Positions 7,963 to 14,261 of a stretch of DNA of 64,000 bases are shown in pieces (within the stretch, counting starts at the first letter, position 1; each line of letters opens with the position of its first letter). The notes below the pieces were generated by a model that was not told the origin of the DNA, made no database searches, and saw only the letters and a program-made list of their open reading frames with translations. Made by a program: the position numbers and the translations under genes. The stretch is taken from the NCBI RefSeq assembly GCF_035084215.1, contig NC_090358.1:2294001-2358000 (forward strand), written 5' to 3'. Source of the DNA: Heptranchias perlo (lineage: Eukaryota).

Positions 7963-8520
7963 GCTGTATGTGAACTAACAACTCGTGTTTTTTGATGACA
8001 ATACCTTACAATGAGAAAGGACGAGCCCAATGCAGTGATTAGTGGGAATAGTTCTAAACGTAAGCGAATACCTGGCGAGGGAGGACAGGACAATGAGTTT
8101 CAGAAATACACCAGCAATGTGGGGAACAGACTGAAAACTGCTGGCTACAGCGGCAATCGCGGACAAAGCCATTTTACCGCACATGACAACCTAGCCTAAC
8201 TGGGTTTTATATATTTCAACAATTTGGAAATGTAATTATTAGGATTTTTAATTCTTCAGAAAAGCGATTTTGCACCTTATCCAAAAAAAAAACCCTTCTT
8301 GCAGCAACCCTGAACTCTTGATTGTAAAATTACAATGGATTATTGTTGTCTTTCGCCAAACTCATGCAGATAAATTGATTGTTGTAATTATCTTTAGCTT
8401 TTGTTGGGGTTTTAATCTTTCAATAGACTCGGGGTAGTTGCAAGAACAATCTACACCCCGTCCACAGTATCCGCCCATTGATAGTGCTGTGAGTATTTAA
8501 TCTGTTCCTTACCGGAGCCA

Positions 8521-8572
8521 TTGGCCGGACTCAGTATCTTCACTAAAGTTCCTCAATAGCAGAACAAATCAG
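8521..8572 (+). pseudogene. crybgx: Disrupted first coding exon of the crybgx-like crystallin
   Basis: Reads SIFTKVP in one frame (stop TAG 8557-8559) and IAEQI-S in the -1 frame ending AG|gtagga (phase 2, matching the next exon). No ATG before an upstream stop in any frame. Resembles the teleost Crybgx N-terminus as recalled (MNIFTKVPGLAQQTSKLG). Confidence 0.6.
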
Positions 8573-11150
8573 GTAGGATTATGTCTGGGCGCCGACACAC
8601 GGATAGAAAGGGCTCTCCTTTGGCATGCTCACATTTCCATTTGTAAGATCAAGGTGACGATTTCTCCTGAGATGGGCAGTCATGTCTTTGTTGACGGTGG
8701 GGACAATCAGGTGATGAAGTGAGCTGGAGATGTTGCTATTAGACAAGTTAAGTCTCACTTTTTGTGACAAAATCTATGATCTCGCACTCGGACTTAGTAA
8801 AGTTCAAAATTACACTATTGCATTGGACGGGGCTGACCTTATGCAAAGGTCCACCCTTCACAATCTCACAGAAATTAGGCCCAACTGTCTACTAAAAGGT
8901 TGTTTCTGGAGGCGGGGACCCGAGCTGCTATAACTGGACTTCAATATTCTGCACCAGTTGGGGAGTTCTGTTGGGGTTTGATGTGAGGTTGGAGGATCCT
9001 GGACTGGACCAGATTTAAGGTGACACTTCCGTTTTATTTTGAGGCCCTCAGGCTCATCCTGGGCCCCAGAATGTGCGCAGACTTTTGGCATGTGAGATTT
9101 GCGAGGAAGCAGCCATCTGTTCCTCGCCGCCTGATGCCTTCCAGCGGTCCAGACACCCTGAAAGCGCTTTGGATATTGGCATTGTTCCCTCCTCGTCCGA
9201 ATCAGGGTTTATGGAGAATGGCATCAAACCCCTGGGAAAGTTGGAACTTGGCTTCTTGGCAAAGTACAAATTCTCCCTTTTGTGCTCACAGCATCTACCA
9301 GGGTTAATATCTCGATACAGCTCCCTCTCGCTACACTCTCTTGATTTTCTATCTAATATCCCAAAAAAAAAGTGTACGTGTCCTAGTGTGATATGGACAT
9401 CTGCCCAGTGATTTGAATATTTTACTGGTGTTAATCCGGGCTTTCCAATACCCAGGCAAGCCTCACCTATTTTACGAAGGCATCTTTTGACAATATCGAC
9501 CTGCTCTCAATCAAATTTGACAGATGTTAAATCAGTGAACTGGACATTTCTCAGGCACCATCAGAGTCCGTTGGATAAAACGTGAAACAGATTCTGTCTG
9601 CTTGCTTCGTGATTCAGGTGGAGGTTACAGATCCCTATTTGAAGAGGAGCTGGAACTCCCGAGCAGGGATGGAACTTTGGTGGTGACCGTTAAAGAGTGC
9701 CAGAAGGTTGATGGTTCAAACCCCACTCCAGAGACTTGAGCACAAAGTCTCGGCTGATACATTATTGCAGCAGGGAGCGAGTTTTATTCTCCATGCTGTG
9801 CTTGACCTGAAATTCTTCACGCAGACAGTCTGCAAACATTAGAAAAATGATCCATTCTCCAGCACTGACATCTCTCACCTTGAAAAGCATTAAACTCCTC
9901 CCCCAGGATATGGCAAAATAACAATCAATATAAAAGCAGCTAGAATGATATCAAATGGGAATGCATGGAATTCGATAAGATGTTTATTGGCAGTTATGAA
10001 AAATTCATATGAATATATTAATATAAATTGCAGATCTCCGGTGGCACTGTTCAAGGTATATTGGATGGTTTATTGTTCTCTACAGAGAGGAGCAAGTTGT
10101 AAGATAGTGTTAATTTGAGGTTCAGATTTAATGTCTGTGTGTGGTGGATGTACATTATAGGGTGAGATCTCCCATGGCATTGCTCACGGTGAGTCAGCAG
10201 TTCCATTGTGGCAAGGCGGAGGGAGAAATGCTGGGATATGGAGGGGCAGGAAGGGTCCCTATCTCAGTTGAAAGAATGTGAAAGCAACTTTGTCGGAGAC
10301 CTCCTCAGAGGCAGTGAAGTAAGCGTTCTTTGATTGGTACTGGAAAATAATTAATATTTTCCTTACCCGTTGCAGGTAGGTAAATAAATACCAGAGTTAC
10401 ATAAATAAATCTTTGCATTTAATATGAGGGACAACTCTTTACTGTTACTGGTCATCTGTTTAGCGTGTGGATTTTTGTAGCAAGTTCCAAGAAATATATA
10501 AAACTTAACGAGATTAAACTAATTTACATCTTTCTTTACTGATCTACTTAAATTAGGACTTTTATTCCGAACCTCATTCCAAACTTGAATAATAATTATT
10601 CCGGAACTTGCTACTTGTTCAAATGGATTTTTTTTGAGTTTGGAGCATAAACAATTAAAAGAAGGGTAACTGCCGTGACACTATTTCCAAAATATGGACA
10701 ATCGCTCCTCACTCATTCACTGCTTTCTCAACTCTAATTGTGTTCGGTTTTCTTAATGTACTTGCTGAGGCCTAGCAAGTTTTGTGAATGGCCAGTTTTC
10801 AATTATAAAAAATTCTAGCGGTTTGATTATTATAACATGTAATGCACAATATATTATTCTGCTAAGGAGGAGGTATATCTATTTAAGGTAACAATGTCTA
10901 ACTGTTAGGTAAACACAAGCTCAGGTCACTGAGAGTTTAATTGCTGTTTGGTCTGGGAATCTTGCAAATTGTAAAGTGCTTGTCAGTTTTGACTCCAGGC
11001 CAAAAAGTGCCCAACATTAAGTAACTGGCCGTTTTGTTCTGAATCTGTAACAAAGTGTGACATCTGCAGTCCGTGTGTGCCCACATATTGTTTTTAATAT
11101 ATTGGTACATACAAATAGTTTAATGACCTTCATTGGTTTTCTTTTCCCAG

Positions 11151-11199
11151 CAAGCTGGGGTCGGTACTCCAACGTGCTTTCTATGGGCCTGGTGGCTGC
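11151..11199 (+). CDS. crybgx: Beta/gamma-crystallin (crybgx-like) exon 2, N-terminal arm
   Basis: ttttcccag|C AAG...TGC|gtaagt, 49 bp; (S)KLGSVLQRAFYGPGGC. Confidence 0.78.
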
Positions 11200-11291
11200 G
11201 TAAGTAAAAACCAGCAATTATTAACAGCATTGACATCTTGCTGAAGGTTATGGGCGATTGCTGATGTCCCAATCTTTGTGATTCATCTCAG

Positions 11292-11413
11292 GTGACCCTA
11301 TATGAGCAAAGAAACTTTTCTGGTAGGCGGTTAGCAGTAACCAGTGACTGCCCAAAGCTGTCAGAATGTAACTTCCCCGAGAGATGCAATTCTGTGCAAG
11401 TGGAGAGTGGAGC
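11292..11413 (+). CDS. crybgx: crybgx-like exon 3, Greek key 1
   Basis: cag|GTG...GC|gtaagt, 122 bp; VTLYEQRNFSGRRLAVTSDCPKLSECNFPERCNSVQVESG(A), YxxxxFxG and S-V-x-V motifs. Confidence 0.9.
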
Positions 11414-12521: not shown

Positions 12522-12657
12522 TTGGGTTGGATATGAGGGTGAAAACTACAGCGGTCACCAATATCTCTGGGATGTGTATAACAAAAGAGAATACAGCAAC
12601 TATGACAAGTGGCTCGGAACATCAGATCAGATCTCCTCTGTAAGAGCAGTGCGAGAG
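12522..12657 (+). CDS. crybgx: crybgx-like exon 4, Greek key 2
   Basis: aacag|T TGG...GAG|gtgggt, 136 bp; WVGYEGENYSGHQYLWDVYNKREYSNYDKWLGTSDQISSVRAVRE. Confidence 0.9.
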
Positions 12658-13213
12658 GTGGGTTCAAAAAAATTGATCTGGCTATAATTTTGCAAGATGC
12701 AGTAAATGATCAACTGTGGAGAGGGACATTACTCAATAAATTCCTCAAAGCACAGGGGGAAGGAGTAATTAAAAAATTAAAATCACCTTTATCAGATGGT
12801 ACATCGCAGAGTTAGGAGAAGCAGGTTCATGGTCAGAGTACCTTGGTCCTTGAGTTTGGGTAGAGGTGCCCCATTGGAGACTGATTGCAACCTCATAGAT
12901 AGGGGGGAGCCAGTGAAATGGAACAAACAGAAGATGAGCCAACTGCCAACAATCAGGATTTGTTGCAGGACCTATTACTGCACGAAATCACTTATCCTGT
13001 CAATCATTAGCAATTGACATGATAAATCCTAGGAGGTTATATTGGTTGGAGAGCAAAAGAAAAGGCAAAAAAGTCATTTTCATTTATGTAGAATTTAAAA
13101 AATATATATTTTTAAAATTTGGAATTCCATGTGTAAAGTTTATCAAGAAAAAACTGGAATCATTGGTACATAACTATCAAGTAAATGTATCTTTGTGCCT
13201 TAAATCCAATCAG

Positions 13214-13353
13214 GAATGTTCTCCATCTAAAATTTATTTATATGAAAAACCTGGCTTTTCTGGAAGGAAAGTGGAACTCCAAGAGGATATTCCGAACCTC
13301 ATTTCCCGCTTCAGTCTCAATCGCTTTTCCTCTGCCAGGGTTCTTGGAGGAGT
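13214..13353 (+). CDS. crybgx: crybgx-like exon 5, Greek key 3
   Basis: atcag|GAA...GT|gtaagt, 140 bp; ECSPSKIYLYEKPGFSGRKVELQEDIPNLISRFSLNRFSSARVLGG(V). Confidence 0.9.
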
Positions 13354-14128
13354 GTAAGTAGCCTGGACCAAGTGTGAGTACAGTCTAGGCCGAGTCAGCT
13401 ACATAACAGTCACTGTACTTGAGAAATAATTTATTGTGCAGTGTTTCAGTGTGATGAGGCACTTATATAAACACACGTATTATTAGATCAATGCAGTTAA
13501 AATTTTATTCACACCATTTGCACAGGTACTCAGAAGAATCCCAACCATCTCCCCTCCTTCCTAAAGGTGTGGACTGCTGCTGAGGCTCGGCTGGTGCCAG
13601 CACCTTTTTGGTATCTCACTCTCCTGGCCATTCGTCACGTGCCTGAGCCTCGACAGTGTCACTGGGCTATCTAACCTCGGGTGGTATCACAGCCACACCT
13701 AATCCCATCCTCAACCAATGTCCACGCAGACGCTCTGCAGCCCGGGTCACTGGACAACGATCAGGTGCAGAAACCCTCTCTGGGTAGGGGACTTGAGGCC
13801 AAATGCAGCCCTCAGTTGTGATCAGCTATCTCAGCAAAGAATAGGAATCAAAACTCAGGGCTTGATGGCCTGTACGGACAGTGTACCTACCTGTAAAGGC
13901 ACTAAAAAAAACAATGACAATGAATATTTCCTAATTTCCTCTCCCCATAAAAACCCCACAGCACTAACCATTTAGGGATGGGAGTGCTTCACATTGAATA
14001 CAATGCTGCCAGCAGTAATATCTCCCTTTAACTAAACATAGTGGGTTAAGGCACAACTTTAAATAGGCATGAAGTTACAGGGTCAGCGGATATTTGCTTA
14101 TATTGTTTTCCTTTACTGTTAATCATAG

Positions 14129-14261
14129 CTGGGTAGCCTATCAAGATGCAAATTACCGAGGCCTACACTACATTTTGGAGAAGAGAGACTTCAACAATTA
14201 TACTGACTGGGGAGCGACTGCTGCCACCGTGGGTTCAATTCGACAAGTCCGCTTCCACTGA
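14129..14261 (+). CDS. crybgx: crybgx-like exon 6, Greek key 4 and stop
   Basis: catag|C TGG...TGA; WVAYQDANYRGLHYILEKRDFNNYTDWGATAATVGSIRQVRFH*. Confidence 0.9.

What the first reader, a model, noticed from the sequence alone, without database searches (positions are those of the whole stretch)
8494..14261. A crystallin with five intact exons but no methionine: start codon lost and exon 1 frameshifted
Seen: exons 2-6 are open, phase-consistent, have GT-AG sites and a poly(A) signal, yet encode no Met. The homologous first exon (8521-8572) has no ATG (context GAGCCATTGGCCGGACTCAGTATC) and is 1 nt short between ...KVP and IAEQI-S, giving TAG in one frame and an upstream TAA in the other. Two lesions confined to one small exon suggest one of: (a) very recent pseudogenisation, (b) replacement by a new first exon, (c) non-AUG initiation, (d) assembly error. 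Candidate replacement exons exist: ATG GCA TTG CTC ACG|GTGAGT (10174-10188) and a 27-codon ATG ORF ending GAA|GTAAGC (~10238-10318). Both are phase 0, so they would skip exon 2 and give an arm-less, gamma-like protein from a beta-type gene. Homology to the teleost N-terminus is from memory.
Basis: partly seen in the sequence, partly recalled or inferred. Interest (0 to 1): 0.72.

Follow-up and report, generated by a model that had tools for sequence, protein, structure and literature searches.

The report
Shark lens gene lacks ATG start
A shark lens-protein gene (crybgx) is intact and its RNA is spliced, but it has no normal ATG start and its old first exon is out of frame, so the protein is likely made from an unusual CTG start, a change that other sharks may share.

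Summary
Observation confirmed. This is the single-copy crybgx gene; exons 2-6 equal a RefSeq protein labelled Heptranchias perlo. Exon 1 is homologous to the gar/teleost first exon (0 of 1420 control windows score as high), has CTC where they have ATG, and is one base short. Two DNA runs of the same sample agree with the window there, so assembly error is unlikely. New point: 0 of 24 database models from sharks, chimaera, coelacanth, salamanders and bichirs carry the MNIFTK start (46 of 58 neopterygian ones do). The eight shark models have mutually unrelated N-termini, yet their cores differ at only 3-21 of 192 residues. Best reading (0.45): exon 1 became 5' UTR and translation starts at a CUG in optimal Kozak context in exon 2 (11155), upstream of every AUG. 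Rivals: young transcribed pseudogene (0.25), unseen ATG exon (0.22). No other shark's DNA, no transcript 5' end and no peptide was seen. The scan had no earlier crybgx note; it noted a similar CUG candidate for elephant-shark TRMT44.

The parts
8494..8500 (+). TATA-like element, putative crybgx promoter (inferred)
   Evidence: TATTTAA at 8494; function not tested
8520..8572 (+). Relic of the ancestral first coding exon, likely 5' UTR now; 5' boundary inferred. CTC at 8530-8532 where gar/teleosts have ATG; one base missing near 8553-8555; donor GT at 8573
   Evidence: DNA contigs of runs X1 and X2 agree with the window here
8520..8546 (+). ATT in a G-3/G+4 context opening an 8-codon ORF that ends at TAA 8544-8546; possible small upstream ORF
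   Evidence: sequence
8556..8558 (+). ATA in the crystallin frame (T at -3, G at +4): second-choice non-AUG start, 198 codons
11151..11199 (+). Exon 2, N-terminal arm KLGSVLQRAFYG
   Evidence: spliced to exon 3 in run X5; nearly invariant in 24 aligned orthologues
11155..11157 (+). CTG with A at -3 and G at +4, in frame, upstream of every ATG: proposed start codon, 191 codons
   Evidence: its use as a start is inferred
11292..11413 (+). Exon 3, Greek key 1
12522..12657 (+). Exon 4, Greek key 2
   Evidence: identical to P0006
13214..13353 (+). Exon 5, Greek key 3
14129..14261 (+). Exon 6, Greek key 4 and TGA stop
14285..14290 (+). AATAAA poly(A) signal
10174..10506 (.).
   Evidence: 68-78% copies on many contigs; repeat-type loose ends at 10165 and 10197

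Best explanation
This shark crybgx gene is intact from exon 2 onward and spliced, its old first exon has no ATG and is out of frame, and the protein is likely still made, starting from the CUG codon at 11155 in exon 2. Shown: the two exon-1 defects, the open Met-free frame, the spliced exon 2-3 joint, the CTG context, and the strong conservation of the core in seven shark species. Inferred: that exon 1 splices to exon 2 as a 5' UTR; that scanning ribosomes meet this CUG (A at -3, G at +4) before any AUG and start a 191-residue protein with all four Greek keys and a 16-residue arm instead of the 31-residue teleost arm; that ribosomes which leak past fall into short out-of-frame AUG ORFs, so output is low; and that the loss of the AUG is shared among sharks.
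For: There is no in-frame ATG in exons 2-6, and all 11 ATGs of the exon 1-6 model are out of frame. The CTG at 11155 is the only in-frame near-cognate codon with both Kozak bases ahead of Greek key 1; CUG is the most efficient near-cognate codon and depends on -3 and +4 (PMC5666671, passages). A GT-AG spliced exon 2-3 contig exists in run X5 and not in the DNA runs; its 479 letters fit exons 2-5 plus 30 letters of exon 6 by my arithmetic. The gene is single-copy, so no duplicate replaces it. Cores of 7 shark species differ at 3-21 of 192 residues, and this species' branch (0.041) is no longer than Mustelus (0.053). At 0.6-1.1e-9 per site per year (from PMC13100897) a dead copy would stay unbroken 100 My with probability 0.008 or less. 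The MNIFTK start is in 0 of 24 non-neopterygian models and 46 of 58 neopterygian ones. The 8 shark models agree with each other only from KLGSVLQ on. Two of them touch exon-1-like sequence without the ancestral start: Carcharodon (11 of 1420 controls as high, best alignment changes frame) and S. torazame (30 of 1420). The coelacanth Ensembl model has Ile at the Met position (2 of 1420).
Against: No DNA of another shark was available, so the shared loss and the conservation of the CTG codon rest on automatic protein models, which can simply miss a 44-base exon 2.6 kb upstream; 12 of 58 neopterygian models also lack the start, and one carp model also begins with Ile. The Carcharodon and S. torazame matches are marginal once six shark peptides are counted, and MVALAAQIS could be a real ATG exon in that catshark. 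The Lys-Leu-Gly that makes the Kozak context is equally conserved in teleosts that have an ATG, so it is not specific evidence; 4 of 192 codons have such a context. The hairpin behind the CTG is unremarkable (32 of 172 windows as stable). Intactness cannot exclude a pseudogene younger than about 15-30 My. One reedfish model has a Met in an exon-1-like stretch. No peptide or ribosome data were seen.
Confidence: 0.45

Rival explanations
1. Young unitary pseudogene: this species or its lineage lost exon 1 function in the last few tens of millions of years, the gene is still transcribed but makes no protein, and other sharks have a normal exon 1 that annotation pipelines missed.
For: Both defects are real in this individual. 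Shark clocks are slow: an unbroken core has probability 0.17-0.38 after 20 My, and the 7 private residues, including Ser to Pro at core 13, fit 15-28 My of drift. crybgx is frameshifted in a blind cichlid (PMC7502198, passages) and weakly expressed in zebrafish (bioRxiv 2020.12.09.418533, passages).
Against: It needs both defects, one of them a two-base ATG to CTC difference, to fall in 45 bases with none in 576 coding bases or the splice sites. Four of the 7 private residues occur in other orthologues outside sharks. It leaves 0 of 8 shark models with the ancestral start to coincidence.
Confidence: 0.25
2. An unseen AUG source: a small new first exon, or a shifted donor or acceptor in exon 1, supplies an in-frame ATG. 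Examples that fit by phase: ATG near 8627 with the donor at 8654; or ATG 8011 to donor 8060 joined to a 13-base piece 8560-8572.
For: 11 phase-2 ATG exons with consensus-like donors exist in 200-11120, and a phase-1 route through the TAG acceptor at 8559 exists. The S. torazame model MVALAAQIS ends like exon 1.
Against: A conserved AUG exon should recur among the 8 shark models, yet no two agree, not even three models from two Scyliorhinus species. Five of the 11 candidates lie inside the opposite-strand lactase-like gene.
Confidence: 0.22
3. Recoding inside exon 1: a start at ATC 8536 followed by a -1 frameshift before TAG 8557, or a start at ATT 8520 with read-through of TAA 8544, restores the long arm.
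For: A -1 shift would give the ancestral spacing, and ATT 8520 has G at -3 and +4 and is in the crystallin frame.
Against: There is no slippery heptamer in 8500-8575. It needs a weak start and a recoding event together. UAA followed by A is a poor read-through context (recalled).
Confidence: 0.05
4. Assembly error in exon 1.
For: The runs laid come from one sample that may be the source of the assembly.
Against: Contigs of X1 (7900-9742, no difference) and X2 (7900-9737, only two poly-A length differences, likely the other haplotype) both match across exon 1.
Confidence: 0.03

Closest known systems
Teleost and gar crybgx (crystallin beta gamma X; zebrafish Q45FX8)
   Same: Orthologue: 65% identical to gar over 197 residues, same KLGSVLQRAF arm and four Greek keys. 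The zebrafish protein is listed in a lens proteome (PMC12232379 supplement rows).
   Different: Neopterygian models start MNIFTKVPG in a 15-codon exon 1; here that exon has no ATG and is frameshifted, and the protein has no Met at all.
Genes started solely at a non-AUG codon: EIF4G2/DAP5 (GUG), TEAD1 (AUU), R3HCC1
   Same: A near-cognate codon in good context followed by out-of-frame AUGs that block any later start (PMC5666671; PMC3105428; passages).
   Different: Those are regulatory genes with experimental or cross-species DNA support, and the non-AUG codon lies upstream of the first in-frame AUG. Here it would be a lens structural protein, a downstream codon taking over after loss of the AUG exon, and it is unproven.
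Start-codon mutations in human CRYBB1 (ATG to AAG) and mouse Cryge (ATG to TTG)
   Same: A crystallin gene that has lost its ATG (PMC2684559, passages).
   Different: Those are rare cataract alleles, treated as null or harmful. Here the loss appears to be on both haplotypes and the core is conserved across sharks.
crybgx inactivation in the blind cichlid Lamprologus lethops
   Same: The same gene carries a frameshift (PMC7502198, passages).
   Different: That is part of wholesale eye-gene decay. This genome keeps dozens of open gamma-crystallin copies and an intact crybgx core.

Membership tests
beta/gamma-crystallin superfamily | Two PF00030 domains (four Greek keys) | tested here: met
   2 stretches, 181.6 bits against a cut-off of 25; nearest solved structures are gamma- and beta-crystallins
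crybgx orthologues | Best hits named crybgx, KLGSVLQRAF arm, groups with shark and chimaera crybgx, single copy | tested here: met
   (seven sharks 99/97 support)
beta-type crystallin gene | Each Greek key on its own exon (PMC2929430) | tested here: met
   exons 3-6
beta-type crystallin gene | Extra 5' exon(s) encode the arm including the start methionine (PMC2929430) | tested here: not met
   no ATG in exon 1 or in frame in exon 2; an unseen exon is not excluded
Solely non-AUG-initiated genes (EIF4G2/TEAD1 kind) | Near-cognate codon with a purine at -3 and G at +4, ahead of all AUGs, and no usable in-frame AUG | tested here: met
   on an exon 1-6 model whose exon 1-2 joint is inferred
Solely non-AUG-initiated genes (EIF4G2/TEAD1 kind) | Stable hairpin about 14-18 bases downstream (helpful, not required) | tested here: inconclusive
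   -11.4 kcal/mol, 32 of 172 coding windows as stable
Solely non-AUG-initiated genes (EIF4G2/TEAD1 kind) | The codon is conserved in orthologous DNA | not testable with these tools
   only this organism's runs were listed; orthologues were seen as proteins only
Solely non-AUG-initiated genes (EIF4G2/TEAD1 kind) | Initiation shown by ribosome profiling, N-terminal peptide or reporter | not testable with these tools
   needs experiments
Unitary pseudogene | Disabling change in the only copy | tested here: met
   exon 1 defects, single copy
Unitary pseudogene | Relaxed selection or further decay in the coding body | tested here: inconclusive
   no stop, indel or splice defect in exons 2-6 and an ordinary branch length, but too few changes to exclude a loss under about 30 My old; dN/dS was not computable
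Unitary pseudogene | No protein product | not testable with these tools
   needs lens proteomics

The most novel reading that the evidence does not exclude
crybgx is a lens crystallin made solely from a CUG start in sharks, and the AUG-less state is old and widespread (also chimaera, coelacanth and salamanders), with the AUG first exon working only in ray-finned fishes. It would be a methionine-codon-free structural lens protein whose dose is set by a weak start codon, misannotated in every non-neopterygian genome seen.
Probability: 0.3. Interest if true: 0.72.

Novelty: new variant of a known kind. Interest (0 to 1): 0.55.

Why it matters
Sole non-AUG starts are known for a few regulatory genes. 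A lens crystallin that survived the loss of its AUG exon by moving to a downstream CUG would show how such starts arise, and would be a natural counterpart to start-codon mutations that cause cataract in people and mice. It would also correct the invented N-termini of the eight shark database models. Three cheap tests decide it: align exon 1-2 DNA across public shark genomes, read the 5' ends in eye RNA, and look for the N-terminal peptide. If the pseudogene rival holds instead, it is an ordinary gene loss caught early.

Tried and rejected
Sequencing runs: 8 listed, all organism A, one sample, two studies; no holder is on record as RNA and no other shark was listed, which is no evidence on expression. 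Contigs cannot show a start and missing cover is no evidence, so I draw nothing from either; the transcript's 5' end remains unseen. Searches for further shark N-termini: proteins under 110 residues gave 1 catfish fragment; the 50% representative search gave no new crybgx among the 150 listed; the ESM Atlas showed only gamma-crystallin clusters. Back-translation test (18 peptides): Pristiophorus, Mustelus, S. canicula, S. torazame RefSeq, chimaera, a second coelacanth model, three salamander and two bichir N-termini did not match exon 1 above chance (88 to 1353 of 1420 controls as high); Cetorhinus (2 residues) and this species' own model were left out. No slippery heptamer. Loss of two internal Mets in sharks was noted but is too weak to use. 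dN/dS could not be run without orthologous DNA. The supplement of PMC11979771 (catshark eye expression tables) was too large to read and may bear on crybgx expression.
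Full report
Identity. Exon 5, searched against longer proteins, returned two shark proteins named crystallin beta gamma X. Their clusters hold eight models from seven shark species, and one, labelled Heptranchias perlo (P0006), equals the window's exons 2-6. 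Pfam finds two Crystall domains, each Greek key has its own exon as in beta-crystallin genes (PMC2929430, first sixth of the text), and the genome holds one copy: exon 5 has one match, and the only locus with several exon matches of 49-72% to a teleost crybgx is this one.

Observation. Exons 2-6 are open, GT-AG and Met-free. Exon 1 is real homology: back-translated gar and teleost N-termini score 24.2-28.5 on 8500-8589, above all 1420 control windows, with a one-base gap after KVP. The Met position reads CTC at 8530, the ancestral frame stops at TAG 8557 and the crystallin frame has TAA at 8544.

Reads. Only this organism's runs were listed, one sample, two studies. I laid 4 of the 8 on 7900-11500. 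Contigs of both DNA runs span exon 1 unchanged. X2 differs from the window at two poly-A runs and three T>C sites elsewhere, so it likely shows the other haplotype; this is not independent of the individual. Run X5, whose RNA nature is the tool's guess and whose tissue is not given, has a 479-letter contig at depth 38 with a GT-AG joint from 11199 to 11292 that the DNA runs lack. The transcript's 5' end was not seen.

Other species. Of 82 named stored proteins, 46 of 58 neopterygian models carry the M-x-I-F-T-K start and 0 of 24 others do (8 shark, 2 chimaera, 4 coelacanth, 5 salamander and 5 bichir models, 14 species; two unnamed proteins left out; only 15 of 190 members of the largest teleost cluster were listed). 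The shark models agree only from KLGSVLQ onward and their upstream parts are unrelated, even among three models of two Scyliorhinus species. This is what gene predictors do when no ATG is at hand. Two shark N-termini weakly match exon 1 without its start: Carcharodon (11 of 1420 controls, best alignment changes frame) and S. torazame (30 of 1420); four others do not match. The coelacanth Ensembl model keeps exon 1 in frame with Ile at the Met position. Against this: pipelines can miss a short distant exon, 12 of 58 neopterygian models lack the start too, a carp model also starts with Ile, and a reedfish model has a Met in an exon-1-like stretch.

Selection. Shark cores differ at 3-21 of 192 residues, this species from the others at 13-21, with an end branch of 0.041 against 0.018-0.053 for Pristiophorus, Cetorhinus, Carcharodon and Mustelus (0.015 the lowest of these). 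A neutral rate of 0.6-1.1e-9 per site per year follows from dS 0.061-0.111 over 50 My of divergence (PMC13100897, passages). With 33 stop-target sites, 20 splice bases and an assumed indel rate of 7% of substitutions, a dead copy stays unbroken with probability 0.17-0.38 at 20 My and 0.008 or less at 100 My. Shark orders split well over 100 My ago (recalled), so the core is under purifying selection in sharks as a group and a protein is presumably made. A young loss in this species alone is not excluded.

Mechanism. In an exon 1-6 model all 11 ATGs are out of frame, the first at 11183 opening 6 codons. In-frame near-cognate codons before Greek key 1 are ATA 8556, ATC 8568, AAG 11152, CTG 11155 and GTG 11292; only the CTG has a purine at -3 and G at +4. 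CUG is the best near-cognate start and context matters most for such codons (PMC5666671, passages); out-of-frame AUGs behind it make it the sole start, as in EIF4G2 (PMC3105428, passages). I therefore commit to a CUG start giving 191 residues at 0.45. The context comes from Lys-Leu-Gly, which teleosts keep as well, and the downstream hairpin is ordinary, so this step is inference. Room for a new upstream exon is small: a lactase-like glycoside hydrolase gene lies head to head on the minus strand with its first coding exon at 6030-6173. Phase-compatible ATG exons do exist by sequence, hence 0.22 for that rival, 0.25 for a young pseudogene, 0.05 for recoding and 0.03 for assembly error.

What is known. 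The crybgx search listed 10 papers; I read passages of three, which cover lens-fibre expression, a frameshift in a blind cichlid and a 2020 statement that the gene's role is unstudied, and none mentions its start codon. Zebrafish Crybgx is in a lens proteome (PMC12232379, two supplement rows of 12). Searches for crystallin + non-AUG + lens (16 of 18 listed), shark + crystallin terms (14 of 16) and non-AUG + shark (15 of 50) showed by title and abstract start no report of a non-AUG crystallin or of shark crybgx. I also saw passages of PMC11979771, PMC6312339, PMC10587355 and PMC2684559. The library lacks most subscription journals, and the catshark supplement could not be read. An unchecked note of this scan proposes a CUG start for elephant-shark TRMT44; it is a parallel case, not support.

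Verdict. The defects are real and not an assembly artefact, and they are probably not private to this genome. A crystallin started at CUG would be a new variant of a known kind. Interest 0.55; the wider case, an old AUG-less state outside ray-finned fishes, has probability 0.3 and interest 0.72.

Noticed in passing
window 416-6173 (-) and L002:191-7165 (-): A glycoside hydrolase family 1 gene, likely lactase-like LCTL (name recalled), lies head to head with crybgx: coding exons at 6030-6173, 4486-4707, 2451-2663, 1475-1756, 416-577 and in L002. A good minus-strand donor near 7675 may mark a non-coding first exon, which would put the two promoters under 1 kb apart.
   Followed up: partly
G000:C7:71980000-72845000: A cluster of dozens of gamma-crystallin copies over about 0.9 Mb, like the catshark cluster in PMC11979771.
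   Followed up: no
G000:C4:116825251-116825781 and G000:C5:8166737-8180358: [quoted passage not shown]
   Followed up: no
window 12522-13353: All seven sharks lack the two internal Mets (core 75 and 132) that nearly all bony vertebrates keep; three species have no Met in the core at all.
   Followed up: partly
protein searches: No ray, skate or carpet-shark crybgx model appeared among the hits; lost, unannotated or missed by the word search.
   Followed up: no
window 8011-8118 and 9052-9263: The RefSeq model of this gene gets its Met from two extra exons here, with weak-looking donors and no homologue in other models; likely invented by the predictor.
   Followed up: partly
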